DNA of 32,000 nucleotides from Candidatus Heimdallarchaeota archaeon (GTDB lineage Archaea; Asgardarchaeota; Heimdallarchaeia; Heimdallarchaeales; Kariarchaeaceae): the NCBI GenBank assembly GCA_030149205.1, contig JASBSB010000003.1, positions 390,001 through 422,000 of the forward strand. The letters are read 5' to 3'. A program made the position numbers and the translations under genes. The notes below the pieces were generated by a model. It saw nothing but the letters and a program-made list of their open reading frames with translations. It did no database searches and was not told where the DNA came from. Positions 4,642 to 26,925 of this stretch are shown here, piece after piece (positions within the stretch are counted from its first letter, which is position 1; each line of letters starts with the position of its first letter).

Positions 4642-4921
4642 TTTAATCCTTTTACGCAAATTGTAACTTATTGTGGAGAGAAATGTTTAGAAATAGACTA
4701 AATGAGCATCAATGTTGTTGGGAAAATTTAAGCTTCAAATTTGGATTAAAGTATTAAGTGTTTATTGCTAAATCTCAAACCTGACAGGGAATTTGACACG
4801 TTTTAGGACAGGTAGAAGGCTAGAGTTTGTTACCTGAAGCCTTCAAAATCAAAGATTAATTTGTGATCAAGATATTCTTTCTTACTATTGGTCTTCAGAT
4901 CTTAATGCTTTAAAATTATTT

Positions 4922-5491
4922 TTAACTGTACGTGAAATAGTCAACTGGAGGATCTCGTTTAAATTTCTCATTATATGCTAACTTTTCGATCGAACGAATA
5001 AAATCAGATTTTGCATCACTGTAATTTTCTCTTGGTATGCTGCTTGCCACAAGTTTAAGCTTTAACTGATAATATTCCTCTCTCGCCTTTGGGTGGGATC
5101 GCAAGTAATCTCTGAATAAAAGATGACGAAAATGAAACTTATGCCCTCTCTCTACCATATGAAGGTGCTCAATCGAAATATTCTCGTGGTCATTATTCAG
5201 ATGACGAACAAAATACCGACGAAAGGGTAAAATTATATTCCATTTCTCGACGTAACGGTAACCTGCCTTCTGAAGTAGTGGAATAAACTCAGATTCCTCT
5301 GCAAGAGAATGTAATTCAACTCCTATATCAATAATAGGTTTAGCACCTAGTCCAGGAACAGAGGTGCCCCCAACATGTTCTACACTGTAAATATAATGAC
5401 CAATAGTTTTCAAAAGAATGTTTCTTCCTTCTTCAAATTTGGAAGGCCAACTTTCATCATAGTCTACCAAATACAACTTATCACGAAACAC
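4922..5491 (-). CDS. GrpB/UPF0157 family nucleotidyltransferase-fold protein
   Basis: LVDYDESWPSKFEE, EHVGGTSVPGLGAKPIIDI, HLHM, FRDYLRSHP, Y..AKSDFI family motifs. Confidence 0.92.
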   Translation of the reverse strand: MFRDKLYLVDYDESWPSKFEEGRNILLKTIGHYIYSVEHVGGTSVPGLGAKPIIDIGVELHSLAEESEFIPLLQKAGYRYVEKWNIILPFRRYFVRHLNNDHENISIEHLHMVERGHKFHFRHLLFRDYLRSHPKAREEYYQLKLKLVASSIPRENYSDAKSDFIRSIEKLAYNEKFKRDPPVDYFTYS

Positions 5492-5756
5492 AATACAGTC
5501 TTAATTTGTAACTATATTAAATACCTTAAAGATGCCCTTTATCTGACTTACCAAATTCTCCTGGTTGTAATTAGTCTCAGAGAATACCTACCTTTCTAAA
5601 GATAAACTTAACTTAAAGTAACCAAATCTAACAGTTTTCAAAACTTCAAGTATTACGTATTTTTTGTTCTTGCCATTTATTTTTAACTTTTCACCATGTT
5701 ATTCAATATTTATCTACAAAGTAATTGTTTTATTCTTTCTTATTAAATTCAGAACA

Positions 5757-7568
5757 TTGAACATTACAGAATCATCAGATTCAATTGCACACTCTTACAC
5801 AAGAAAACCCTATTACAGAAATGGGACTACCTTATTTCTGTCATTCTTTAAAAGACAACCCGGAAAATTGAGTCTAGCTATTTTTGCATTTGCACTCACC
5901 TCAATTTCTGCTTTAATACCAGCTATACTTGTAGGAATGGCAATTGACGAGCTCACCAATTTCGGTTTTGACTCAACTGTTTGGCTTTACTCAGGTCTAA
6001 TTGTCTTATCAGGTGTTTTTTATTATGTTGTGTCATACTTCTCACTGTATACTTATATAACACTGGCCTTCAGCTATGAGAGAGATATCCGACAGGAGTA
6101 CTTTGACAGAATACAACAGCATAGCTTAACCTTCCATGATGAAAATAACTCCTCTAAGTTGCTCTCATTGGGAGTCACAGAGATAACTCAAATGAGACAA
6201 GGAATAATGCCTGGGACGAGATTCATTATCCAAAATATATTTTCAATAATCTTTATCACTTATTCAATTTACAGGGTAACTGACATTTCCAAACTCTATA
6301 TCACCTTTGGGGGATTTGCATTGTATTACATTGTAGCAATTTACCAATCTAAGAAGATCATACCAGTAAGAACTCAACTCGCAAACACTGTAGGGGAGTT
6401 AACGGAGGAATCGCAGGAGATATTCAAAGGAATCGAGGTTGTCAGATCCTTAGGGTCAAGACTGCGAGAAATCCAAAGATTTAGAACCACAAGTAAAAGG
6501 TACTCAAAGCTAGGAATACAAGAGGGACAAATGGCATCATTCTACTGGCCTGATCTCATTTTGCTATCATTGACAGCCGTGTTATTCTGGCTAACCCTTC
6601 TCGATGTCACAAACAAAGTTATTTCTGTCGGAGATATGGTTCAGGTGCTCGGTCTGTTGTTAACCCTTCAGTTATCTAGTTCTTTTATGCCTCAGATATT
6701 TTTGTCCATTAATGCGGCTCTTACAAACTCAAACAGAATATGGAAAAAAATGAACTGGCAGGATCCACAACCTGACAAGATGATCACTAAAGATTTAGAG
6801 GTCAACTGGGATGGAGACCTGAAATTTGAGGATGTGACATTTACTTACACTCAGTCAGAAAGACCTGCCTTAGAAGAAATAAATATTTCAATACCCCCTC
6901 ATAGCAAAGTGGCTTTGATCGGAGGTCCTGGATCAGGGAAGTCAACATTTCTAAAACTGCTCTTACAGCTGTACCTACCTCAGAAGGGAAGAATCACGAT
7001 CTCTGGAGTTGATTTTCAAGACATCAAAGTGGATGAGGTAAGAAGAAACGTTAGTAGGGTTGAACAGGAAGTATTTCTCTTTTCAGGGACAATTCGAGAT
7101 AATATTGCATTCGCAAAACCTGATGCATCTGACGAGGATGTCATTGCTGCTGCTCAGGCTGCTCAAGCGCTTGAATTTATCAAGCAGCTTCCTGATGGAA
7201 TCTATACCAAGATTGGTGAAAGAGGTGTTGATATCTCAGGGGGTCAAAAACAAAGGTTAGCTATTGCAAGAGCGATACTTGCAGACCCCAAGATTCTATT
7301 GCTAGATGACAGTGCATCTGCCTTAGACAGTAAAACTGAGGAGCTGTTAAGAATCGCCCTAGATAACCTTTCAAAGGACAGAACCACTATTACAGTGACC
7401 CAACGATTAAACACTTTGGTTAGAGCAGATCTCATAATCTTATTGAAAAAGGGAAAAGTTCTCGCCTCAGGCACACATAAAGAACTGTTAAAGGACTGTG
7501 AAGAATATCAGAACATTTTCAAGTTGCTACCGGAATCTGAACAGTTACTAGCTCAGGAGGGAGATTAA
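5757..7568 (+). CDS. Heterodimeric ABC exporter, subunit A (TMD+NBD)
   Basis: TM domain then Walker A GGPGSGKS, signature ISGGQKQR, degenerate Walker B (LLLDDS) and Q in place of the H-loop His (VTQR), typical of the degenerate half of a heterodimer. The start is uncertain: TTG 5757 preferred, the track gives 5664. Confidence 0.93.
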   Translation: MNITESSDSIAHSYTRKPYYRNGTTLFLSFFKRQPGKLSLAIFAFALTSISALIPAILVGMAIDELTNFGFDSTVWLYSGLIVLSGVFYYVVSYFSLYTYITLAFSYERDIRQEYFDRIQQHSLTFHDENNSSKLLSLGVTEITQMRQGIMPGTRFIIQNIFSIIFITYSIYRVTDISKLYITFGGFALYYIVAIYQSKKIIPVRTQLANTVGELTEESQEIFKGIEVVRSLGSRLREIQRFRTTSKRYSKLGIQEGQMASFYWPDLILLSLTAVLFWLTLLDVTNKVISVGDMVQVLGLLLTLQLSSSFMPQIFLSINAALTNSNRIWKKMNWQDPQPDKMITKDLEVNWDGDLKFEDVTFTYTQSERPALEEINISIPPHSKVALIGGPGSGKSTFLKLLLQLYLPQKGRITISGVDFQDIKVDEVRRNVSRVEQEVFLFSGTIRDNIAFAKPDASDEDVIAAAQAAQALEFIKQLPDGIYTKIGERGVDISGGQKQRLAIARAILADPKILLLDDSASALDSKTEELLRIALDNLSKDRTTITVTQRLNTLVRADLIILLKKGKVLASGTHKELLKDCEEYQNIFKLLPESEQLLAQEGD

Positions 7569-7570
7569 TT

Positions 7571-9679
7571 ATGTCGAGAAGAGCAAATATCTTGGCTGAT
7601 AAGAGCAGATCCAGAAGTTCCAAAGTGTTGCTTGTAAAGCTATGGGACTATCTCCTCCCAATGAAGAAGTACTTGGGTCTTGTCGCCTTCCTAACACTGT
7701 TTTATACTGGCGCAGTTACAATTCAACCAATTCTGGTTCAATATGCAATCAACAACCTACTTAGTGTGGGGACGTTTGCGTCAGTAGTCAACCTACTGCT
7801 GTTGTATGTTCTGCTATCAGCGGTTGCATGGATAACACAATCAACCATCAACTGGTTCTTAGCAATAGTACAAAATGACTTGGTACATCGATTGAGGACA
7901 GATACCTTTGAGAAACTTGTAGATGCAGACCTAAGCTACCATTCACAGACTCAGTCAGGAAATGTGACATCAAGAGTTGTAAACGATACTCAAGAGATAA
8001 CCGCTGGAATCACTGTCTTCACAACCAGTGCCACAAACCTGCTGGTTGCTGTTGCCACACTTTCTGTTCTGTTCTCAATCTCCATCTGGTTTGGTCTAAT
8101 TTCACTGTTAGCCATCCCTACAGCCTACATCATTACCAAGGTTATCTCGAGCAAGGGTAAAGAACGTATGCTAAAAGTCAGAGCATCTCTTGGAAGAGTG
8201 AGTGGTAAGCTCGCTGAAAATCTCGCAGGAGTTGCAGTGGCAAAATCGTTCAACCAAGAGAAGAGAACCAGCAATGAGATTCGAAAGTTAAATGACGAGA
8301 CATTCGAGTACTTCAGACAACTAGGTGCAATGATGGTATCAATCTTCCCATCAATAACTCTAGTAAGTCTGATCATGATTGCCAGTGTGCTATTCGTCGG
8401 TGGGTATCTCTACACAATCCCCATAATTACTATTGGTGCCATTTACCTAGGTACAGTGATGGTCAGGAGATTTCTAAGCCCAATACTACAGCTTTCAAAC
8501 AATATAACCAGCCTGCAGACTGCACTTGCTGCAATGGACAGAATTGTTGATATCCTAAACACTGAACCTGCTGTTGGTGACAAACCTAATGCCAAACCAC
8601 TAGTTCTTACTGGAGGTACGATTGAGTTTGAACACGTTTCATTTGAATACGTGCAAAGGGAGTCACGAAAGAATGCATCAAAGAATGGAAAAAGACCATC
8701 ATCACAAATGGAAGGAAAAACTGTAAAATCTAACAAAGAAGAAGAAAAGATACTGAACCCCTCTAAAACTGTCTCTGAAAGAAGTATCCAAGCAGATGGT
8801 AAATTAACCTCCCAAGCGGAGAGGCAGACCGATGGGCATACTACAATCAAAACTGAAACCCAAAATGATGAAAATGATCAGATTGCAAACAAACCCACAA
8901 ATGTTGACTTTAAAAAAGGAGTAGAACCAGTAAACAAAAAGGTGCTAACTGATGTTTCATTTGTTGTTCCAGGTGGTTCAAAAACCGCACTCATTGGACA
9001 TACAGGTGCAGGGAAATCAACAATCACCAAGCTTATTCTTCGATTTTATGACCCAACCTCTGGATCTATCAAGATTGACAATCAGGACTTGCGTGAGGTG
9101 ACTTTAGAATCCATTTATAACTCTGTGAGCCTTGTGACGCAGGAGCCCTACCTATTTGTAGGTACAGTCATGGAAAACATAAAGTATGGAAAGATGGATG
9201 CAACTGACGAAGAGGTCTACACAATCTCCAGATTGGTAGGTGCAGAGGAGTTCATCGATGCGCTTCCCCAAAAATATCAAACCACGCTAACTGAGAGTGG
9301 GAAATCCTTGTCTGCTGGACAGAGACAGATGATCACAATCGTCAGAACAATGTTACGAGACCCTGCGATACTAATTTTGGATGAAGCAACAAGCAGACTT
9401 GACGCTTACTCTGAGAGTTTGGTTCAGCAGGCACAGAATATTCTGTTCGAGGGCAGAACAACCCTGGTTATTGCTCATAGACTTTCCACAGTACGAGATG
9501 TTGATCAAATTGTTGTAATTGATGATGGTAAGATAATTGAGTCAGGGTCACATGAAGAACTTTACGCTAAAAAAGACATGTATTATGAGCTCTATGAGAT
9601 GTATTACTCACACCAAGGCCTGAAGGAGCTTGCCAAGCCAGAGATGATATCAGAAGAGAAAAGTCAAACAAGCGACTAG
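7571..9679 (+). CDS. Heterodimeric ABC exporter, subunit B (TMD+NBD) with ~90-aa polar insertion in the NBD
   Basis: Starts 2 nt after subunit A. GHTGAGKS, LSAGQRQ, ILILDEATS, IAHRLST motifs. Confidence 0.95.
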   Translation: MSRRANILADKSRSRSSKVLLVKLWDYLLPMKKYLGLVAFLTLFYTGAVTIQPILVQYAINNLLSVGTFASVVNLLLLYVLLSAVAWITQSTINWFLAIVQNDLVHRLRTDTFEKLVDADLSYHSQTQSGNVTSRVVNDTQEITAGITVFTTSATNLLVAVATLSVLFSISIWFGLISLLAIPTAYIITKVISSKGKERMLKVRASLGRVSGKLAENLAGVAVAKSFNQEKRTSNEIRKLNDETFEYFRQLGAMMVSIFPSITLVSLIMIASVLFVGGYLYTIPIITIGAIYLGTVMVRRFLSPILQLSNNITSLQTALAAMDRIVDILNTEPAVGDKPNAKPLVLTGGTIEFEHVSFEYVQRESRKNASKNGKRPSSQMEGKTVKSNKEEEKILNPSKTVSERSIQADGKLTSQAERQTDGHTTIKTETQNDENDQIANKPTNVDFKKGVEPVNKKVLTDVSFVVPGGSKTALIGHTGAGKSTITKLILRFYDPTSGSIKIDNQDLREVTLESIYNSVSLVTQEPYLFVGTVMENIKYGKMDATDEEVYTISRLVGAEEFIDALPQKYQTTLTESGKSLSAGQRQMITIVRTMLRDPAILILDEATSRLDAYSESLVQQAQNILFEGRTTLVIAHRLSTVRDVDQIVVIDDGKIIESGSHEELYAKKDMYYELYEMYYSHQGLKELAKPEMISEEKSQTSD
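9177..9643 (+). repeat. Direct repeat copy 1 (3' part of ABC subunit B), paired with 12784-13250
   Basis: Manual ungapped alignment: 467 nt with about 30 mismatches (~93-94% identity). Confidence 0.95.
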
Positions 9680-14716: not shown

Positions 14717-16237
14717 TCACGAAACAAAATTATCTAAGTCCTTAGAGAGCTGTTTGAGTGAAGGAAGATGCATATACATCATATGTCCTGCCTCATAGAA
14801 CCTCATTGTGATATTCTTTCTCAGACTCTCATCAAGCTTCATATGATTAAACGTGTAGTTGGTTGCAAAGTATGGAGTCGCCATATCATAGTACCCAGAT
14901 CCCACAAAAACGCGAAGGTTCTGATTCTTACTCATTGAGTCCCTCAATGTCTCAGCAACATCTACAAACTGATTATTATGCTCATTAAACTTCCATGTCT
15001 GATAAAGTGAAGCAAGTATCTTATAGTCAAGATCCGACTCAAATCCAAGCTCCTCTCGGATGTAATCATTGAATGTTGCAGTGTATGCTCCCTGAATTAC
15101 TGGATAGCTTGGATCATAGCTGTACATATCATCAACGCCATCTCTGTCTATACCTTTAAACCTGCTGTCTAACCTACCTACCGTCCTGTTCTCATCTCTG
15201 AGAAGCTCTTTTGCAAATCTGTGGATATCAATTCGAAGGTGCGTTCTACTTAGGTAGGTCTTAGAAAGACTGGTAAATCTGTTTAGCTTTTCAAGTACAC
15301 TTTCCTTTAGCTCATTATCAATATCATCTCCATCAAATAGGGCACCAAGATACTCGTTTCTGCAAAACTCCTCGACCTCTTTTAAGAGTCCACTTAAACT
15401 CTCCGATTTTACCTTGCCGTGATATCGAGCAGTTGCTGCATATGTTGGGAGATATAAAAGGTGAGGCTCATCATTCCCAGTTCCAAATCTGATGGTCTGA
15501 AAGTTGAGTACTGAAGAAATGAGCATGATACCATTGAGATAAAAACCTAGGTTGTTCTGAAGGTATCCAGACAATCCAGCAGCTCTGGTTGTTCCATAGC
15601 TCTCTCCTATTAGATATTTGGGAGATTTCCATCTAGAGTTTCGAGAGGTGTACAACCTGATAAAATCACCCACAGATTCTAGGTCTTTTTTGAACTGATG
15701 AAATTCTGTTGGGTCTTCACCCTCAACAGATCGACTGAATCCTGTGCTTACTGGATCTATGAAGACCAGATCCGATGACTTTAAAAGTGAATACTCATTG
15801 TCTACCAACCGGTATGGGGGTTTTGCGGGTTGTTCATCCTCCTCAGCTATGACTCGCTTCGGCCCCAACAACCCTAAATGCAACCACACAGATGATGAAC
15901 CTGGTCCACCATTGAATGAGAACGTGAGAGGACGTTTTGAGTAATCTTCTGTACCGAGCTTAGTGTACGCTATGTAGAAGATCCTCGCTTTTGGTTTAAC
16001 CTCTTCCTTGTTGTCTTCCTCTCGAAGCACTGCGTAGCCAGTTTCAGTCCTGTATCTGAGTTCTTTGCCATTGAGTGTGATAGAATGCTCTCGGATGACA
16101 ACCTCATCTTTAACCTCTGGTTTTGAATCCTTTCCATTGGCATCGCTTTTGGAATTTCCTGTAGAATCTTCCTTGAAATTATCCTTGGAGCTGTCTTTGG
16201 AATTTTTTTGTGTATTATTCTTAGAATTCTCTGACAT
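14717..16237 (-). CDS. Serine carboxypeptidase, peptidase S10 family (bacterial-type)
   Basis: FNGGPGSSS, nucleophile GESYG, YYDMATP (Asp), EAGHMMY (His). Charged N-terminal extension and no signal peptide. Confidence 0.95.
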   Translation of the reverse strand: MSENSKNNTQKNSKDSSKDNFKEDSTGNSKSDANGKDSKPEVKDEVVIREHSITLNGKELRYRTETGYAVLREEDNKEEVKPKARIFYIAYTKLGTEDYSKRPLTFSFNGGPGSSSVWLHLGLLGPKRVIAEEDEQPAKPPYRLVDNEYSLLKSSDLVFIDPVSTGFSRSVEGEDPTEFHQFKKDLESVGDFIRLYTSRNSRWKSPKYLIGESYGTTRAAGLSGYLQNNLGFYLNGIMLISSVLNFQTIRFGTGNDEPHLLYLPTYAATARYHGKVKSESLSGLLKEVEEFCRNEYLGALFDGDDIDNELKESVLEKLNRFTSLSKTYLSRTHLRIDIHRFAKELLRDENRTVGRLDSRFKGIDRDGVDDMYSYDPSYPVIQGAYTATFNDYIREELGFESDLDYKILASLYQTWKFNEHNNQFVDVAETLRDSMSKNQNLRVFVGSGYYDMATPYFATNYTFNHMKLDESLRKNITMRFYEAGHMMYMHLPSLKQLSKDLDNFVS

Positions 16238-17527: not shown

Positions 17528-18889
17528 TTATTTTGGTAAAAATAGGGTTAGATCACCAAATTCATGCCAAGTATAACCTAGACTCATTGCTTTATTGTAG
17601 GCTTTCAAAAGATTATCCTTATCTTGAGAAAATCCTGCAATAAGTGAGAAGTGTGAGCTATTTGGTAAATGCATCCCTGTAAGAAGTGCATCGCAGAGAT
17701 AAAATGATGAATTTTCTTGAAATTTAATTCTGGTAGTACCAAAAACACCATTTGAATCTATTTGAATGCCTTGGAGTTTAGAATCTGTTAATTTAACCCT
17801 AACCTGGGTTGAACTAGATGAACCATCAACCTGTTCCAAAAAATCAGATAGCAAAATTATGATGTCATCTTTTCTCATTGGTTCATCAACGTTATTTTCA
17901 GCTCTTTTTAGCAGAAGTTCTTTAAATAAAGATTCTAAGGCTCTTAAAACAGTAGTTCCAACTGCAACTACTTTACCACCTCTTCTTTTGGTTTCAAGGA
18001 TATTTTTGATTGTGCTGAATGAGATAAAATATTTTTCGGGTAATGGGAAAAAGGCATCCAGCTCCTCAGATCCAGTACTTGAAAGACCAGCAGAATGAAG
18101 TAAGGACACGACAGAAATATTCCTATCTTTGAGTCTCTTAACAAGATTCCAAGATAACTGCAAGGCAGCGGAAGGTGGTTCAACAGAGATAGGGATTGTT
18201 GAGAAGATTGTTTGGTGATCCCAGAGGGAAAGCTCCTCTTCTATGTATGAATACCTTATCAATTTCCCAGACCTGTATATTTCTCCAAGAACCTCATCAG
18301 CAGTAATAGGTTGAGAACTCCATTTACCATTTTTTAACACCTTTACAAATTCCACCGTTATGAATCGTTTAAAGGTATCATGTATTTCTAAGACCTTAAG
18401 TCCAACAGTGGAGCTGAGCAGAACGATATCTGATTCCTTCAGGTCGGAGGGTTCCTCTCGTTCCTCAGTTGGTAGTTCTAGGGATTTGGATGACGTATTT
18501 TCGTTTCCTGTTTGCTTAAAGATTATGGCTTTCCATCTCTTAAAACTCCTTAATTTCTGATCAATATTAGCTGCCAATCGTATCTCAACTGCCTCTAGTG
18601 TTCTTGAGTTTCTTCCAATGAGAGATGCTGGAAGGGTTGCACTCTCGTTAACGATTACGAGGTCATTTGAAGACAATATTTCTGGAAGATGAAACAGCTT
18701 TCTGAAGCTTTGTCCCTCAGATTTGAAGACCATTAGATTTGTGTTCTCATCCCTGATTCTACTTTTGTGTGCAATTGGAACCTCATCGCTAATTAATAGT
18801 TTTTGGGTATTCAATTGCGTTTGCTTAGGCTTGTCTTTCTTACCGAGATTTACCTTGGGGTGACCGTTAATCAAAGAAAACTCCTCCAT
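17528..18889 (-). CDS. QueA-like protein (S-adenosylmethionine:tRNA ribosyltransferase-isomerase fold, divergent paralog)
   Basis: LVIVNESATLPASL, SVEPPSAA, VAVGTTVLRALES, LLTGMHLP, WHEFGD. These match the QueA fold but differ from canonical NDT.VIPARL, APTAGLHF, TNFHLP and FFSYGD. Overlaps the SDR stop by 19 nt. Confidence 0.85.
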   Translation of the reverse strand: MEEFSLINGHPKVNLGKKDKPKQTQLNTQKLLISDEVPIAHKSRIRDENTNLMVFKSEGQSFRKLFHLPEILSSNDLVIVNESATLPASLIGRNSRTLEAVEIRLAANIDQKLRSFKRWKAIIFKQTGNENTSSKSLELPTEEREEPSDLKESDIVLLSSTVGLKVLEIHDTFKRFITVEFVKVLKNGKWSSQPITADEVLGEIYRSGKLIRYSYIEEELSLWDHQTIFSTIPISVEPPSAALQLSWNLVKRLKDRNISVVSLLHSAGLSSTGSEELDAFFPLPEKYFISFSTIKNILETKRRGGKVVAVGTTVLRALESLFKELLLKRAENNVDEPMRKDDIIILLSDFLEQVDGSSSSTQVRVKLTDSKLQGIQIDSNGVFGTTRIKFQENSSFYLCDALLTGMHLPNSSHFSLIAGFSQDKDNLLKAYNKAMSLGYTWHEFGDLTLFLPK

Positions 18890-22157: not shown

Positions 22158-23459
22158 CTAGACCCAGATTAATTCAATCTTAATTGATGTGTGACTTAAC
22201 CGCATTTTGAATGATTCGACAAGAAATTTTTCTGGTTCTGATTTTGTGGAGAGTTTAATCCTTAGATTTAGAGATGTATGATCTTCTTCCTCAATCCAAG
22301 GCTCTAGTGAGATCAAGGTTTTCTCAAGGTTGTTTTGGGTTAACAATTCTCTGTTCAGTTCAAACCCTCCTTTTGTTTTCATCCAGCAAATGGGTAGTCT
22401 TGTCAACAGTCTTAGTGGGGATTTTGGGGATTTTGAAGGCTTGACTTTTGTCAGAGATAGTTTCTTTATAAAATTACCTACAAATGAAGGTTCTTTACCT
22501 GAATCTGGAGACAACTTCCCCAGCCTATCATAAGAACTTTCCCATTGAAAAAGTCTTTGGGCAACCTCAGTCCAACTTCTATGATTTTTTGTACTCTTAG
22601 TAACTAGTGTAAGATGCTCTCCTGCAACTAATCCAATATAGGGAAGATAAGACTTGAATTGAGTAAATCCTCCGTTAAGTTTTTCAGGAACAGGTACAAT
22701 ATCTTTCCAAGCCCCCCAATAAGCCTCTTCTGGTCCATATTTTAAAAATTGCTTCTTTCTTTCTGTGCTGAGCTCGTCAGAATCATATACTGTCCATAGG
22801 AGTTCATCAATTAGTAAAGCAGATGGTGACCGTCGACCTAGCTTTCTTTTTGGGTTCCAATCTGGGATAAGGCGATGAAATGTCCATAGCATTTTGAATA
22901 CATTTGAGGCAGTTGGATGAGAAATCGCGATATGCACTTTTTCTTTTTCTTTAGGAGAAAGGTTTGAAATGTCTACTAATCTTTTAAATTCATCCCATTG
23001 ATCCTCACATTGCAACCATTCAAAAATTGCTGAGAGAAAGGGAAGATAAGCACCATCAACGTTCATCTGTCGATACCCTGTGTTTAACGGTCTCAAAAGT
23101 TGATCGATATCATCATCGAACCCTGACCACTGTACTTCCAAAAATTTTTCTGCTGCACACTGAATATTCCAAACTACTTTGGAGGTATAGAACCTATGGT
23201 GACCGGTCTCTGTTTCTTCAGCTTTGATAACAAAGGTGTCTGGCTTGCTTTCAACAAATAATTGTGGAGTATCAATTTCCCAGTCTTTTGGAATCCACCG
23301 ATAATGAATTTGTTTATGACTTGGACAGAATGCACCCTTAAATTCAAATCTTCTGTGTGTAATAATCGGGTCAACCTCACCACAACATGGACAGACCTCC
23401 TCATGGAGATCTTCACGAAGGGGAAATAGTTGATCTGAACCACACTCTATTACTTTCAA
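22158..23459 (-). CDS. Hypothetical protein with N-terminal Cys/His cluster; fourth gene of the vWA-kinase-PP2C operon
   Basis: 433-aa ORF. TTG start 5 nt after the PP2C stop with GAGGT upstream; CPCC-x18-CPSH motif. Confidence 0.8.
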   Translation of the reverse strand: MKVIECGSDQLFPLREDLHEEVCPCCGEVDPIITHRRFEFKGAFCPSHKQIHYRWIPKDWEIDTPQLFVESKPDTFVIKAEETETGHHRFYTSKVVWNIQCAAEKFLEVQWSGFDDDIDQLLRPLNTGYRQMNVDGAYLPFLSAIFEWLQCEDQWDEFKRLVDISNLSPKEKEKVHIAISHPTASNVFKMLWTFHRLIPDWNPKRKLGRRSPSALLIDELLWTVYDSDELSTERKKQFLKYGPEEAYWGAWKDIVPVPEKLNGGFTQFKSYLPYIGLVAGEHLTLVTKSTKNHRSWTEVAQRLFQWESSYDRLGKLSPDSGKEPSFVGNFIKKLSLTKVKPSKSPKSPLRLLTRLPICWMKTKGGFELNRELLTQNNLEKTLISLEPWIEEEDHTSLNLRIKLSTKSEPEKFLVESFKMRLSHTSIKIELIWV

Positions 23460-23464
23460 GAATT

Positions 23465-25321
23465 CTAAACCTCTAACTCAGCCCAATGTAAGATAATGAT
23501 ACTTTGATCATCAGTAGGTGTTGGATGAAAATCTTGTCTGGAGTTATTGTCGACACAGCAATTTGCAGTGATCCATTTCTTGAGGAGGACATTATATTCT
23601 TCCTCTGAAGAATTTGAACCCGGTACTAACACCTTCTTATAGAGGTGGTTAAGCACTTTTCCAGAACCGAATGATATTCCATCAGAGGACATTAAAATTG
23701 TCCCTCCGTTTAGATTCTGAATAGTTACCACAGGTTTTCCCAGTATGCCAAAGCTGGTAACTGCACTTTTCAAGTTCTTTTTCCTATCTTGTTGAGGGAA
23801 TAACAACTTTGAGAATCCCGTAAATTCTTTATTGAAATAAATCGCGTGTCCATCTCCAACCCAACCGAAGAAAAGACGATTATTTGCAACAACACTGACA
23901 AGGAAGGTAGTTGCACCTCCTGATAATTCTGTGTTTAAGCAGGCTCTGTTTATCGAGGAAACTAATAACGACTCCCATTGACTAAGAGAATCATTCTTGG
24001 GATCAAATTCCTCCTTAAAAACTTTGATGAATTCTGAGGGTAATCTTCTGGCAAGTTCTCTTGAAGCCTTTCCTTCGTTGCTCACCCCATCACAGAGAAT
24101 GATTCCTCTTATGAGGTTCCCAATTTCAAACGATTCTACATAATCCTGATCCTTGTTTAAATAAGGATTTAAAGCTGAAGCAACTAAAAATTTAGGTTCA
24201 TTATTGATTGTTGATTGTTTTGTATCAGTAATTTTGGTGTTGATTTGATCATTGGATGGTTTTTCAAAATTGGAGGAACTTTGGTAGTTTGATATCATGG
24301 ATTCAATTTCTGCACTTTGTGAGATCCTTATCGAATTAATTTCCCGTTGAATCTCTGCTAGTCGATCTACAGTTAGCTGATTTGGATCAGACGAATTACC
24401 AATTTCCATTACTTTAGGATCAATGATGTTGTTTAGACTTCCATTCTCATAACCCTTCTTCTTATTGGTCAAATGCACGTTTGAGTTTGTTTGTTCAGAG
24501 CCTTGACCAAATGGCTTGTTTTTTGTATGGTTTGATCCATAATCTGGTACTTTATTTTCCTCATTCTGCACTTGCTCGTTTAAGTGTTCATTGGAGTCAG
24601 AATAAGAAGATTCTCTTCCTAAATTATTAATTTCTTTTTTATGTAGATGGGATGGTTGCAACTCTGAGCTTTCTTTTATCCTTTCTTCATGGTTATATTC
24701 ATTTTCAGACTTGTAAGTATCATTTGATATGTGATCTCCATCTGAATCTGATACTGAATGTTTGGGGTTCCCAAGGTTGACAGAACCTTGATTGGTGCTA
24801 ATTCCTGAAGAATTTGTTTGATATCCTTCTTGGAGGTCAAGTTTAGGGTCTTTTGATTTGATTACGTTAGTGCTCCTCATAGGTCGAGGTACGCTAACGT
24901 GTTCATCGTTAGAATATCTTTTTTGAGAAACAGGTGTATTTTTGGTACTTGAATCAGCAATAGACAAAGTAGAATCTATCTGTTTATTAGAAGTTCCAGT
25001 TCTACGTTGTTGTGGATTATTAGTTTGATCAAAAGTTGCTTGAGATTGATTAAATCCTGTGAGAGAGCTTTCAGATGTCTTCAATTCATCGCTTTCATCC
25101 CCTGCCCATAAATATTTCCAAAATCGCTTCAACAGAGGTGGTTTTCTTTTCAGGTACATGGCTTCAATTTCTCTGTTATATTTTTGCACCTGTGTTTCCA
25201 CAGCCACTTTTAAAAGTTCTTTAACATCAGGATGAGTCCCAAATTTAGTCACCATGATGTCAGTTCGAATTTCAAATTCATGGAGGAATTTTTCGAGTAA
25301 TTTTTGTTCTTTGGATTTCAT
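23465..25321 (-). CDS. PP2C/PPM-family phosphatase with N-terminal helical domain and long disordered linker
   Basis: C-terminal ~245 aa carry the metal-binding motifs DQD, LCDGVS, VGDG, SSDGI, DDQSII. ATG 25321 follows AGGTGA (which contains the kinase stop) by 4 nt and is preferred over the track's 25396 start. Confidence 0.88.
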   Translation of the reverse strand: MKSKEQKLLEKFLHEFEIRTDIMVTKFGTHPDVKELLKVAVETQVQKYNREIEAMYLKRKPPLLKRFWKYLWAGDESDELKTSESSLTGFNQSQATFDQTNNPQQRRTGTSNKQIDSTLSIADSSTKNTPVSQKRYSNDEHVSVPRPMRSTNVIKSKDPKLDLQEGYQTNSSGISTNQGSVNLGNPKHSVSDSDGDHISNDTYKSENEYNHEERIKESSELQPSHLHKKEINNLGRESSYSDSNEHLNEQVQNEENKVPDYGSNHTKNKPFGQGSEQTNSNVHLTNKKKGYENGSLNNIIDPKVMEIGNSSDPNQLTVDRLAEIQREINSIRISQSAEIESMISNYQSSSNFEKPSNDQINTKITDTKQSTINNEPKFLVASALNPYLNKDQDYVESFEIGNLIRGIILCDGVSNEGKASRELARRLPSEFIKVFKEEFDPKNDSLSQWESLLVSSINRACLNTELSGGATTFLVSVVANNRLFFGWVGDGHAIYFNKEFTGFSKLLFPQQDRKKNLKSAVTSFGILGKPVVTIQNLNGGTILMSSDGISFGSGKVLNHLYKKVLVPGSNSSEEEYNVLLKKWITANCCVDNNSRQDFHPTPTDDQSIIILHWAELEV

Positions 25322-25325
25322 GAAT

Positions 25326-26213
25326 TCACCTGAAACATCTAGATCTGAAAGATGACCAAACCTGTTTCGCTGTTGGTCTCTTCTCCTGATCCTCATAGTT
25401 CATAAATACCTGCCCTATGGTTGCGGTAGCTATGGTATGGTTCATTACTTGGCGCACTTTATCAAGTATGGACTTATTTAAGTTTGGTTGAACCTTTGAG
25501 TGTTTAGATACAACCTCAAATTCTGGTGGCCAGATTCCTAACCCATTCTCTTGAATTTCAAGGAGCTCTAGGATGCTTTTATGGTCTGCAACACTCAAAA
25601 AAAAGAAGGGAGAATACCCAGTTAGTGCCTTCATAATAAGTGAAGCTAACCACCAGATGTCTGAGCTGAATGTAATCTCATTGTTTACTACCTCAGGAGG
25701 AATAGGCCAATCAGGAAATTGAATGTGCCCTTGCACAATTGGTTGAAGTTTCTTCTTCCTCTCTGGAGAGTATCCTGATCCATCAAAGTCAATGATTGCG
25801 ACCCTCCCAACATTGGAATAAAGAATATTTAAAGGGGCAAGATCTGAATGAATGATACTGTTGGAATGAATTTCCACAAGCCCAGCGGATAATCCTATAG
25901 CTATTCTCTCCCGATTCTTTAATCTTTTGGGTGGGCTGTACCCCTGGTAATAATCCTCAAATGTGCGATGTTTAAAGAGTCTGTAAAGCATAATTGGATT
26001 ACCTTCATTATCTGACCCATTATCAACCATCCAAGCCCTGGAAAGTGCACCGGTCTTGGGTTTGGAGATAATATTCCCTATTTTTCTCGCCCTTCGTTGA
26101 GCTTGCACAGAGTTTGAGTCTAACTGATTATACACTTTTAAGGCATATGTATCCCCTAGTGCTCTCACTTCATAAACTGTGCCTTGAGCACCCTGACCCA
26201 AACTTTGGATCAT
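25326..26213 (-). CDS. Ser/Thr protein kinase (TerY-P/YegI-like), possibly N-terminally extended to 26258
   Basis: LGQGAQGTVY, YALK, IHSDLAPLNIL, IIDFDG, PPE, SDIWWLA, RPT subdomain motifs. Confidence 0.92.
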   Translation of the reverse strand: MIQSLGQGAQGTVYEVRALGDTYALKVYNQLDSNSVQAQRRARKIGNIISKPKTGALSRAWMVDNGSDNEGNPIMLYRLFKHRTFEDYYQGYSPPKRLKNRERIAIGLSAGLVEIHSNSIIHSDLAPLNILYSNVGRVAIIDFDGSGYSPERKKKLQPIVQGHIQFPDWPIPPEVVNNEITFSSDIWWLASLIMKALTGYSPFFFLSVADHKSILELLEIQENGLGIWPPEFEVVSKHSKVQPNLNKSILDKVRQVMNHTIATATIGQVFMNYEDQEKRPTAKQVWSSFRSRCFR

Positions 26214-26268
26214 CTTAACCCTCGTCTTTCCATTCTTCGCAAGTTTTAAATGAATGATAGTCTCACCT

Positions 26269-26925
26269 TTATTTTCTCATTGCGATTAATGATGACCTTT
26301 CTAACAACCCACGTAAGTCATCTGGACTTGGGTCTTTTTTGAATAGATCAGGTGTTGAGACAAGATCCTTTAACAGTTCTTCTGCAGCATTTCCAAATGC
26401 TCCTGCTCCTACTGTGTACAGGTTTGCAAGCTTCATACCTCGTTGTTTTGGGTCATCTCCACGGTTCACCCATCCATCAGATAAGAGAATGATAGCTACC
26501 TTTCTTGCATCTGAATCAAGTTCTGAGCTTCTGTTCATGAACTCATCAGCTTTCTGTTCTGCCCATTGCAATCCTGCATCTAGGTTTGTGTTTCCATGAG
26601 GTCTTGGTAACTCTACTGGATTTTCTTTTGGTAATGCAATCACACTGGTTGTGTCAAGAATCTCTGTAACATCATTACTAAAAAGAGCAATTGCAATATT
26701 AAAACTGGATGCAGCCCTAGAACTTTGTAATCTTTGAATAAAGCCATTTGTAGCTTCTTCTGCCTCTTTATATTTGGGTTCTCCGGATGAGCCTTCTTCA
26801 TTCATACTACCTGATGCATCATATACTATGAGAACGAGCTCTTCTACGGTAATTGTTACAAAATCATCTGATAATCCCATGTCATCAAGACCAAGATCAA
26901 AAATTTCGTCTTCTTCACTGTTCAT
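26269..26925 (-). CDS. von Willebrand factor A domain protein (TerY-like)
   Basis: Complete MIDAS: YDASGSM, GNTNLDAGL, LLSDG. GAGTGAT upstream of the ATG. Confidence 0.92.
   Translation of the reverse strand: MNSEEDEIFDLGLDDMGLSDDFVTITVEELVLIVYDASGSMNEEGSSGEPKYKEAEEATNGFIQRLQSSRAASSFNIAIALFSNDVTEILDTTSVIALPKENPVELPRPHGNTNLDAGLQWAEQKADEFMNRSSELDSDARKVAIILLSDGWVNRGDDPKQRGMKLANLYTVGAGAFGNAAEELLKDLVSTPDLFKKDPSPDDLRGLLERSSLIAMRK

What the first reader, a model, noticed from the sequence alone, without database searches (positions are those of the whole stretch)
22158..26925. Archaeal four-gene vWA-kinase-PP2C-X operon: a rearranged TerY-P-like phosphorylation switch with an extra gene
Seen in sequence: four co-oriented, tightly packed genes, each with an SD-like motif, two of which (AGGTGA) abut or contain the preceding stop. 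The vWA has a full MIDAS, the kinase has its catalytic Lys/Asp/Asn, and the PP2C has all metal-binding Asp motifs. Established: the vWA+PP2C+kinase triad is the TerY-P module (E. coli YegL/YegK/YegI), described in Ter stress-response loci and reported as anti-phage, usually in the order vWA-PP2C-kinase with extra domains on the kinase. Differences here: archaeal host, kinase before phosphatase, a bare ~300-aa kinase with no TM or C-terminal module, a phosphatase with a ~370-aa N-terminal arm, and a coupled fourth gene of unknown family. Inference: an undescribed defence or stress system in which the vWA senses, kinase and phosphatase toggle, and gene 4 is the effector or substrate.
Basis: partly seen in the sequence, partly recalled or inferred. 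Interest (0 to 1): 0.88.

Follow-up and report, generated by a model that had tools for sequence, protein, structure and literature searches.

The report
Asgard four-gene kinase-phosphatase switch operon
Four tightly packed genes (a metal-site adaptor protein, a protein kinase, a tethered PP2C phosphatase and an orphan zinc-ribbon protein) form a real operon kept in the same order in about ten genomes of one Asgard archaeal family, so it is a lineage-specific variant of a known phosphorylation triad whose biological role is still open.

Summary
On the minus strand at 22158-26925 lie a 218-aa vWA protein with a complete MIDAS, a bare Hanks-type kinase, a 618-aa PP2C_2 phosphatase (helical head, roughly 300-aa disordered linker, catalytic domain) and a 433-aa protein with no family.

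The host is an Asgard archaeon (Kariarchaeaceae, Heimdall group). The order vWA-kinase-PP2C-gene 4 recurs in every related locus I could read, about nine distinct lineages, all in this family, with stop/start overlaps and differing neighbours.

Gene 4 has only about six relatives among 1.84 billion protein representatives. It has no Pfam, PADLOC or NCBIfam match and no significant fold match. It carries a Cys/His zinc-ribbon-like N-terminus, a confidently modelled helical core and a small alpha/beta C-domain.

The module resembles the TerY-P triad in domain content only. It shows no specific similarity to E. coli YegL or PphC, the kinase has no C-terminal fusion, and the gene order differs. 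A sister triad in canonical order, without gene 4, exists in the same family.

Nothing supports a defence role beyond the analogy, and the neighbours are housekeeping genes. The kinase probably starts at a conserved ATT codon.

Verdict: new variant of a known kind, moderate interest. The scan noted other TerY-P-like four-gene modules before, on other DNA (e1-4229261).

The parts
26269..26925 (-). vWA protein, 218 aa. It has a conserved acidic N-terminal peptide (LDDxGLSDDF, residues 13-22) and a vWA fold with a complete MIDAS (D36, S38, S40, T113, D150).
   Evidence: PF00092 3.8e-10. MIDAS residues are invariant in 10 homologues. It is 68-80% identical across genera, against 50-54% for SRP19.
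26263..26268 (-). AGGTGA Shine-Dalgarno-like motif directly after the vWA stop codon, 7 nt upstream of the in-frame ATT at 26255-26253.
   Evidence: Read from the sequence. Related loci show the same 7-nt spacing from GAGG/GGGGTG/GAGGTG to ATT.
25326..26255 (-). Hanks-type protein kinase. It is 309 aa if it starts at ATT 26255 and 295 aa from ATG 26213. Motifs: G-loop GQGAQG, K26, HSD-LAPLN (non-RD, no catalytic-loop Lys), DFD, conserved basic C-tail WSSFRSRCFR. It has no extra domains.
   Evidence: PF00069 2.6e-19. Motifs are invariant in 5-6 homologues. The upstream in-frame peptide (I/M)KLxLAKxGK is conserved in six loci.
25097..25321 (-). PP2C gene, helical head (residues 1-75). The first ~25 residues (LLxxFxxEF helix) are conserved in all homologues. 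The AGGTGA SD at 25331-25326 contains the kinase stop codon.
   Evidence: Alignment, composition, sequence.
24197..25096 (-). PP2C gene, disordered linker rich in Ser, Asn, Thr and Gln (residues 76-375). Neither length nor sequence is conserved; the whole N-terminal arm is about 110-215 aa in relatives.
   Evidence: 15-25% hydrophobic residues, S 15%, N 12%. No alignable similarity to homologues.
23465..24196 (-). PP2C gene, catalytic domain of the PP2C_2 family (residues 376-618) and stop codon. The Asp-bearing motifs KDQD, CDG, SDG and DDQS and a CC...H motif are conserved.
   Evidence: PF13672 26.2 bits against a cut-off of 24. 39-51% identity to homologues. Motif conservation. It is the only PF13672 match in this genome.
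22158..23459 (-). Gene 4, an orphan 433-aa protein with a TTG start. It has a Cys/His zinc-ribbon-like beta N-domain (C6, C23, C26, H35, C45, H52), a helical core (about 130-350), an invariant loop LGRRxxS (207-213) and a small beta-alpha-beta C-domain (357-433).
   Evidence: No Pfam, PADLOC or NCBIfam family. Six relatives in all from the exhaustive and word-index searches. AF2 models: pLDDT 74.9 for the whole protein and 82.5, pTM 0.82, for the core. No significant fold match.
22821..22847 (-). Gene 4 residues 205-213 (RKLGRRSPS), a basic loop. R205, L207, G208, R210 and S213 are invariant. It is modelled with confidence, not as disordered.
   Evidence: Alignments. pLDDT 86-94 for this stretch in the core model.

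Best explanation
This is a self-contained, four-protein Ser/Thr phosphorylation switch specific to the Asgard family Kariarchaeaceae. It derives from the same domain kit as the TerY-P triad (stand-alone MIDAS vWA, PP2C_2 phosphatase, Hanks kinase) but is rearranged and extended by a lineage-specific fourth subunit.

Shown: the four genes are inherited as one unit in fixed order with translational coupling. All catalytic and metal-binding residues are conserved. Gene 4 never occurs without the others wherever flanking sequence exists.

Inferred: the bare kinase is made at a low level from a weak ATT start. It is opposed by a PP2C that is anchored through its conserved N-terminal helix and reaches targets on a long flexible linker. 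Together they set the phosphorylation state of gene 4 and/or the Ser/Thr-rich linker and the vWA N-peptide. The vWA MIDAS acts as the adaptor that binds an acidic or phosphorylated ligand.

Gene 4 is the non-enzymatic output. It has a zinc ribbon, a new helical core and a small alpha/beta domain, and it most likely acts by binding nucleic acid or a partner protein. In this reading gene 4 takes the place of the zinc-ribbon or OB module that TerY-P kinases carry as a C-terminal fusion.

For the physiological role I lean to cellular regulation (about 0.45) over antiviral defence (about 0.3).
For: The order vWA-kinase-PP2C-gene 4 is seen in G047/L006, G051/L007, G049/L008+L018, L011-13, L010, L001 and L036. 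Kinase/PP2C overlaps are 1-4 nt and PP2C/gene 4 gaps 5-16 nt, or a 10-nt overlap in L036. Neighbours differ between loci: MFS/GNAT here, TPR/Arf, PolD, HK-RR/GSIII and CNNM elsewhere, so the four genes are the conserved unit. Catalytic residues are invariant. Gene 4 is restricted to 4 of 400 Asgard genomes by sequence and by profile, always with the strong vWA hits. A sister triad vWA-PP2C-like-kinase without gene 4 lies in G045 of the same family (family HMM E-values 6e-23, 3.5e-18, 1.4e-31). TerY-P kinases are described as fused to a zinc ribbon or OB fold (PMC11090510). Gene 4 opens with a Cys/His zinc-ribbon-like motif whose residues 12-40 match a zinc-ribbon repeat protein (Zn_Ribbon_1 at E 0.13 in one member). 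The ATT start is supported.
Against: No biochemical or expression data exist. No phosphosite is known. The alpha-C glutamate of the kinase is not conserved (Asn here, Lys in L010), so activity is plausible but unproven. The RRxxS loop is confidently structured, which fits a binding site as well as a phospho-acceptor. The zinc-ribbon and winged-helix-like hints for gene 4 are weak (Pfam E 0.13-0.22; best Z 3.4). There is no specific sequence link to canonical TerY-P proteins, so common descent with that triad is an inference from architecture.
Confidence: 0.55

Rival explanations
1. It is an antiviral defence system of the TerY-P kind. The vWA or gene 4 senses infection, the kinase (normally held down by the PP2C) is released, and gene 4 is a new effector or the kinase itself causes abortive infection.
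For: TerY-P-like modules are reported as stand-alone anti-phage systems against T7-like phages (Gao et al. 2020, as summarised in PMC11090510, and PMC7699616). The distribution is patchy: 4 of 12 family genomes have it, and it was not found in three same-genus genomes of 82-89% completeness. Genomic position varies. Gene 4 and the PP2C evolve fastest (33-49% and 39-51% identity, against 68-80% for the vWA). The kinase and gene 4 have weak start codons. Kariarchaeaceae are reported to be rich in defence systems (PMC11291487).
Against: No defence, restriction or mobile-element genes lie next to the operon in any context read. PADLOC matches are kinase-domain-level only (mad6, PD-T4-6), and the NCBIfam MAD6 score is 48 against a cut-off of 460. 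Gene 4 shows no nuclease, pore, NADase or other effector signature. No copy is on viral contigs. The vWA is more conserved than a housekeeping protein, which is unusual for an arms-race component.
Confidence: 0.27
2. It is an ArnA/ArnB-type archaeal regulatory module. A vWA protein and a zinc-finger protein form a phosphorylation-dependent complex that controls expression of some cellular structure or response.
For: In Sulfolobus the vWA protein ArnB and the FHA protein ArnA interact in a phosphorylation-dependent way and are controlled by ePKs and a phosphatase (PMC6509490; list). Gene 4 has a zinc-ribbon-like N-terminus. Many of the weak structural rows for its core are winged-helix DNA-binding proteins. 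The neighbours are housekeeping genes.
Against: No FHA domain is detected in gene 4 by Pfam at E up to 10 in any of 8 members or in the fold searches. The vWA has no C-terminal extension like that of ArnB/vWA2, and its profile does not match that structure's sequence. All winged-helix rows have Z of 3.4 or less.
Confidence: 0.1
3. It is a partner-switching device. The C-terminal beta-alpha-beta domain of gene 4 is a STAS-like anti-sigma-antagonist domain that is phosphorylated by the kinase and dephosphorylated by the PP2C, as in SpoIIAA/RsbV systems.
For: About 10 of the 50 best rows for residues 357-433 are STAS or anti-sigma-antagonist structures (Z 4.0-5.2). One AlphaFold DB row is a STAS protein. 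Every homologue has a Ser near the N-terminus of the second helix of that domain. PP2C phosphatases are the classical partners of STAS proteins (established knowledge).
Against: The Z values lie below the tool's stated noise level of 7-8 and are tied with generic Rossmann-like fragments. The domain is shorter than a STAS domain. The Ser is not in one aligned column. Partner-switching kinases are GHKL-type, not Hanks-type. No Pfam STAS match appears.
Confidence: 0.07
4. The genes are neighbours by chance, or gene 4 is an unrelated passenger.
For: None beyond the lack of functional data.
Against: Order and coupling are conserved in all readable loci at 33-80% protein identity and in different surroundings.
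Confidence: 0.02

Closest known systems
TerY-P triad (Anantharaman, Iyer and Aravind 2012; anti-phage TerY-P of Gao et al. 2020), as described in PMC11090510 and PMC4978471
   Same: It shares a stand-alone vWA protein of about 220 aa with a MIDAS, a PP2C-like phosphatase and a Hanks-type Ser/Thr kinase in one operon. It shares the proposed logic of a metal-site adaptor with an opposing kinase and phosphatase.
   Different: The order is vWA-kinase-PP2C instead of vWA-PP2C-kinase. The kinase has no C-terminal zinc ribbon or OB fold. The PP2C has a helical head and a long disordered linker. There is a conserved fourth gene of an orphan family. No Ter, McrBC/CoCoNuT or DNA-processing genes are nearby. 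The host is an Asgard archaeon.
E. coli YegL (vWA) - PphC (PP2C) - YegI (kinase)
   Same: The Pfam families are the same: PF00092 and PF13672. YegL is almost the same size (219 aa) as the vWA here (218 aa).
   Different: There is no significant pairwise similarity for the vWA (E 2.2) or the PP2C (E 0.07), and only 20% identity for the kinase domain. The E. coli proteins do not score with the Kariarchaeaceae family HMMs (E above 0.1). YegI is 648 aa with a large C-terminal region.
Sister triad in another Kariarchaeaceae genome (G045:C111): vWA 256 aa, PP2C-like 679 aa, kinase 343 aa
   Same: It holds the nearest detectable relatives of all three enzymes (family HMM E-values 6e-23, 3.5e-18, 1.4e-31). 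Its phosphatase is also long and its kinase is also bare.
   Different: It has the canonical TerY-P order and no gene 4. Its phosphatase falls below Pfam detection.
Sulfolobus ArnA/ArnB module (PMC6509490)
   Same: It is an archaeal system in which a vWA protein and a second, FHA-containing protein are controlled by ePKs and a phosphatase (PMC6509490; that ArnA also carries a zinc finger is from my own knowledge).
   Different: No FHA domain is found here. The vWA lacks the beta-sandwich and helix-bundle extension. The phosphatase is a PP2C, not a PP2A. There is no sequence relationship.

Membership tests
TerY-P triad | Stand-alone vWA protein with an intact MIDAS | tested here: met
   PF00092 3.8e-10. 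D36/S38/S40/T113/D150 are invariant.
TerY-P triad | The vWA belongs to the TerY/YegL subfamily | tested here: inconclusive
   BLASTP against YegL gives E 2.2. YegL scores E 1.1 with the family HMM. No TerY-specific model was available in the libraries.
TerY-P triad | PP2C-like phosphatase in the operon | tested here: met
   PF13672 PP2C_2, 26.2 bits against a cut-off of 24. E. coli PphC is in the same family (5.7e-52). The Asp motifs are conserved.
TerY-P triad | Ser/Thr kinase fused at its C-terminus to a zinc ribbon or OB fold (PMC11090510) | tested here: not met
   The kinase ends 16 residues after the conserved subdomain-XI Arg (R279). There is no further domain.
TerY-P triad | Gene order vWA-PP2C-kinase | tested here: not met
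   The order here and in all orthologous loci is vWA-kinase-PP2C.
TerY-P triad | Recognition by the DefenseFinder Gao_TerY models, or anti-phage activity | not testable with these tools
   PADLOC-DB gives no match even for E. coli YegL and PphC (control), so its silence on these proteins is uninformative. No DefenseFinder models were available and no experiment was possible.
ArnA/ArnB module | FHA-domain partner protein | tested here: inconclusive
   No FHA match in Pfam at E up to 10 in 8 members. None appears among the fold-search rows. The N-domain model has low confidence at residues 80-130.
ArnA/ArnB module | vWA with a beta-sandwich and C-terminal helix bundle carrying the phosphosites | tested here: not met
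   The vWA is 218 aa and the Pfam VWA match covers residues 31-207, which leaves no room for extra domains.
Partner-switching (STAS / PP2C / anti-sigma kinase) | STAS-fold substrate domain | tested here: inconclusive
   Residues 357-433 give Z 4.0-5.2 to several STAS structures, below the noise level. No Pfam STAS match.
Partner-switching (STAS / PP2C / anti-sigma kinase) | GHKL-type anti-sigma kinase | tested here: not met
   The kinase is Hanks-type (PF00069).
MADS defence kinase MAD6 | Score above the NCBIfam NF047741 cut-off | tested here: not met
   48.2 bits against a cut-off of 460, covering the kinase domain only. The PADLOC mad6 match (4.8e-23) covers only profile positions 57-272 of 659.

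The most novel reading that the evidence does not exclude
Gene 4 is a new-fold output protein that exists only as the fourth subunit of an Asgard-specific vWA/ePK/PP2C switch. Its activity, for example nucleic-acid binding through the zinc ribbon and helical core, would be toggled by phosphorylation at the invariant RRxxS loop and read out by the MIDAS site. This would be a previously undescribed signalling or immune device in the archaeal group closest to eukaryotes, built from eukaryote-style parts.
Probability: 0.2. Interest if true: 0.7.

Novelty: new variant of a known kind. Interest (0 to 1): 0.45.

Why it matters
Kariarchaeaceae belong to the Heimdall group, which is close to the origin of eukaryotes. 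Ser/Thr kinase, PP2C and vWA signalling is typical of eukaryotes but barely studied in Asgard archaea. This operon is compact and conserved, and all four parts can be expressed. It offers a tractable case for learning how a MIDAS adaptor, a bare kinase and a tethered phosphatase cooperate, and what the orphan fourth protein does.

It also shows that TerY-P-like triads recruit different fourth components in different lineages; the scan recorded another such case on other DNA. The apparently conserved ATT start of the kinase is a small but testable example of non-canonical initiation in archaea. Without functional data it remains a candidate, not a discovery.

Tried and rejected
- **Complex prediction.** vWA + kinase + gene 4 with gene 4 as the partner gave no verdict (score 0.14, mark 0.32). 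It is evidence neither way.
- **Expression.** No RNA holder is listed for the stretch, only three DNA metagenome runs.
- **PADLOC.** No match for the vWA, the PP2C or gene 4. The control shows that PADLOC also misses E. coli YegL and PphC, so this says nothing about TerY-P membership.
- **Gene 4, sequence searches.** Pfam at E up to 10 on all members, NCBIfam and the ESM Atlas feature search (best 0.79) gave nothing. The PDB sequence profile returned only designed Top7-like proteins at E 0.06.
- **Gene 4, fold searches.** The whole model was searched by Foldseek against PDB, AFDB clusters and Atlas, and by VIA wide. The core model was searched by Foldseek against PDB and AFDB clusters and by VIA wide. 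Only weak matches came back: best Z 5.6 on the C-domain and 3.4 on the core.
- **STAS profile test.** It could not be built. Only one STAS protein was found in 13 related genomes.
- **Viral contigs.** No relative of gene 4.
- **Wider relatives of the vWA.** The genome contigs pattern scan found only the same family.
- **Profile search for gene 4 in 400 Asgard genomes.** Beyond the four carriers there were only per-genome E-values of 0.002-0.008, taken as noise.
- **Conservation yardstick.** A housekeeping comparison with the ABC-type ORF at 7571-9679 was useless because of about 80 paralogues per genome. SRP19 was used instead.
- **Tandem repeats in the PP2C linker.** Nothing meaningful.

Full report
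**What is there.** The minus strand between 26925 and 22158 carries four ORFs with no other gene between them. They are flanked by a convergent MFS transporter gene and a divergent GNAT-like gene.

- Gene 1 (26925..26269, 218 aa) is a vWA domain protein (PF00092, 3.8e-10).
- Gene 2 (ATG at 26213, ends 25326) is a protein kinase (PF00069, 2.6e-19).
- Gene 3 (25321..23465, 618 aa) matches PP2C_2 (PF13672) at residues 407-562, just above the curated cut-off (26.2 bits against 24).
- Gene 4 (23459..22158, TTG start, 433 aa) matches nothing in Pfam, PADLOC or NCBIfam.

Gar1 and SRP19 genes a few kb away show an archaeal host. The vWA relatives on record are named Candidatus Kariarchaeaceae or Heimdallarchaeota, so this is an Asgard archaeon of the Heimdall group. 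No tRNA or Rfam family lies in the window.

**Is it one unit?** Yes.

Gene 4 has one relative in the 5.8-billion-protein word index and four more among 1.84 billion representatives read exhaustively by phmmer. A search of 400 Asgard genomes finds gene 4 only in the window's genome and three others of the same family. This holds both with the protein and with a profile. The strong vWA hits fall in the same four genomes.

Every locus with readable flanks shows the same order:

- G047/L006: 218, 304, 445 and 443 aa.
- G051/L007: 220, 312, 377 and 378+ aa, cut by the contig end. The missing gene 4 C-terminus matches a piece on contig C210.
- G049: vWA and the kinase start on C99; the kinase end, the PP2C and gene 4 on C397.
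- A 497-kb JGI contig (L011): 217, 314, 470 and 442 aa.
- L010, L001 and L036: cut by contig ends but consistent.

There is no counter-example.

Kinase and PP2C overlap by 1-4 nt in the other loci. PP2C and gene 4 are 5-16 nt apart, or overlap by 10 nt in L036.

The surroundings differ between loci and are housekeeping or ordinary signalling genes: MFS and GNAT here; TPR and an Arf-type GTPase; PolD; a hybrid histidine kinase, a globin and GSIII; a CNNM transporter.

Identity to the window falls along the operon:

| Protein | Identity to the window |
|---|---|
| vWA | 68-80% |
| Kinase | 50-59% |
| PP2C catalytic domain | 39-51% |
| Gene 4 | 33-49% |

As a yardstick, SRP19 is 50-54% identical between these genera and 58-60% within the genus.

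**Anatomy.**

*vWA.* The MIDAS residues (DxSxS, Thr, Asp) are invariant. So is an acidic N-terminal peptide, LDDxGLSDDF, that precedes the first strand.

*Kinase.* It has the G-loop, the beta-3 Lys, H(S/A)D-LAPxN, DFD, the subdomain-XI Arg and a conserved basic tail WSSFRSRCFR. It is a non-RD kinase, it lacks the catalytic-loop Lys, and its alpha-C Glu position is not conserved (Asn here, Lys in L010). Activity is therefore plausible but not certain. It has no sensor, membrane or C-terminal domain.

*Kinase start codon.* The annotated ATG is probably not the start. The in-frame peptide upstream, (I/M)KLxLAKxGK, is conserved at the amino-acid level in six loci.

- In the window, L006 and L010 it begins with ATT, placed 7 nt after AGGTGA, GAGG or GGGGTG. 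In L010 the ATT directly follows a stop codon.
- L007 has TTG-ATT.
- G049 has GTG at that position.
- L011 has an ATG further upstream.

The kinase is then 309 aa (26255..25326).

*PP2C.* It has a helical head whose first ~25 residues are conserved, then a linker that is unrelated in sequence and variable in length between genomes. Here the linker is about 300 aa (residues 76-375), with 15% Ser, 12% Asn and 15-25% hydrophobic residues. The catalytic domain follows, with all four Asp-bearing motifs and a CC...H motif conserved. It is the only PF13672 match in this genome.

*Gene 4.* The N-terminus has invariant residues C6, C23, C26, H35, C45 and H52. Residues 12-40 match a zinc-ribbon repeat protein at E 1.4e-7.

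The AlphaFold2 model of the whole protein is moderate (pLDDT 74.9, pTM 0.53). The core, residues 130-350, folds with confidence on its own (pLDDT 82.5, pTM 0.82).

No library gave a significant match. Foldseek found nothing at E 0.001 or better in PDB or AFDB clusters, and the Atlas TM-scores were 0.24 or less.

The exhaustive VIA search gave two weak results. For the C-terminal beta-alpha-beta domain the best Z was 5.6, with about ten STAS rows at Z 4.0-5.2. For the core the best Z was 3.4, mostly winged-helix proteins. Both lie below the tool's stated noise level, so I treat STAS-like and winged-helix-like only as leads.

An invariant basic loop, LGRRxxS (207-213), is modelled with high confidence. 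It could be a phospho-acceptor with Arg at -3, or a phosphate or nucleic-acid-binding site. No nuclease, NADase, pore or other effector signature is visible.

**Relation to known systems.** The domain inventory is that of the TerY-P triad: a TerY-like vWA, a PP2C-like enzyme, and a kinase fused to a zinc ribbon or OB fold. That triad has been proposed to act as a metal-sensing phosphorylation switch and has been reported as a stand-alone anti-phage system (PMC11090510; PMC4978471; PMC7699616).

Membership is only partial. The vWA with a MIDAS and the PP2C_2 phosphatase are met. The kinase fusion and the gene order are not. Subfamily identity of the vWA is inconclusive, because the E. coli proteins YegL and PphC share the Pfam families but show no significant similarity by BLASTP or with the family HMMs. 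PADLOC cannot decide the matter, because it misses even the E. coli triad.

The nearest relatives I could find are in Asgard genomes themselves:

- G045, of the same family, has a triad in canonical order (vWA 256 aa, PP2C-like 679 aa, kinase 343 aa) without gene 4.
- G001 has a vWA-kinase-X-X-vWA cluster.

The four-gene form therefore looks like a rearranged derivative that gained gene 4. Because TerY-P kinases carry a zinc ribbon or OB fold at their C-terminus, and here a zinc-ribbon-like motif opens a separate protein, gene 4 may fill that functional slot. This is inference.

The archaeal ArnA/ArnB module (a vWA protein plus an FHA protein under ePK and phosphatase control; PMC6509490) is a functional analogue. 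Its defining FHA domain and extended vWA are not found here.

**Function.** I commit to a four-subunit phospho-switch with gene 4 as a non-enzymatic output (confidence 0.55).

- For defence: the TerY-P analogy, the patchy distribution, the variable location, fast evolution of gene 4 and the PP2C, weak start codons, and a defence-rich host family (PMC11291487).
- Against defence: housekeeping neighbours in every context, no effector signature, no viral copies, and a vWA that is more conserved than SRP19.

I put defence at about 0.27 and cellular regulation somewhat higher.

The complex prediction gave no verdict and no RNA data are available. Neither counts as evidence either way.

**Novelty and score.** I found no paper describing this arrangement in the searchable library. 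Earlier notes of this scan describe other TerY-P-like modules with different fourth genes, and an Asgard ArnA/ArnB-type operon. This locus is therefore one more lineage-specific elaboration of a recurring kit: a new variant of a known kind, with an orphan and possibly new-fold subunit. Interest 0.45.

Noticed in passing
window 26253-26268 (- strand); L006, L007, L010, L018: The kinase gene appears to start at ATT, 7 nt after a Shine-Dalgarno-like motif. The peptide encoded upstream of the annotated ATG, (I/M)KLxLAKxGK, is conserved in six loci. Four loci have ATT at that position, one has GTG and one has an upstream ATG. This is a candidate conserved non-canonical start that keeps kinase levels low.
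   Followed up: partly
L025 (G045:C111) 5212-9171 (- strand): A sister triad lies in another Kariarchaeaceae genome in canonical TerY-P order: vWA 256 aa, a 679-aa protein that matches the family PP2C HMM but not Pfam, and a kinase of 343 aa. It has no gene 4.
   Followed up: partly
L026 (G001:C19) 4768-8954 (+ strand): Another Asgard family has a cluster of vWA 243 aa, kinase 327 aa, a 446-aa unknown (weak PP2C-HMM and AAA_11 hints), a 131-aa unknown and a second vWA of 242 aa. This suggests a wider, varied class of vWA-kinase modules in Asgard archaea.
   Followed up: no
window 24197-25096 (- strand): The PP2C's N-terminal arm is about 370 aa here against about 110-215 aa in the other genomes; its linker part (residues 76-375) is rich in Ser, Asn, Thr and Gln and has no tandem repeats. 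The cause of this lineage-specific expansion of a disordered tether is unknown.
   Followed up: partly
window 26860-26889 (- strand), vWA residues 13-22: An invariant acidic peptide, LDDxGLSDDF, precedes the vWA fold. It could be a pseudo-ligand for the MIDAS, a docking motif or a phosphosite (S19).
   Followed up: no
window 17528-18889 (- strand): A 453-aa protein matches the bacterial queuosine-synthesis family QueA (PF02547, 1.6e-43) in an archaeon. It overlaps an SDR gene by 19 nt.
   Followed up: no
window 14717-16237 (- strand): A 506-aa serine carboxypeptidase of family S10 (PF00450, 7.3e-19). To my knowledge this family is mostly eukaryotic.
   Followed up: no
L011 9337-9864 (- strand): In the 497-kb JGI contig an Arf/Roc-type small GTPase gene lies 8 nt after gene 4 on the opposite strand. 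This neighbour is not present in the other loci.
   Followed up: no
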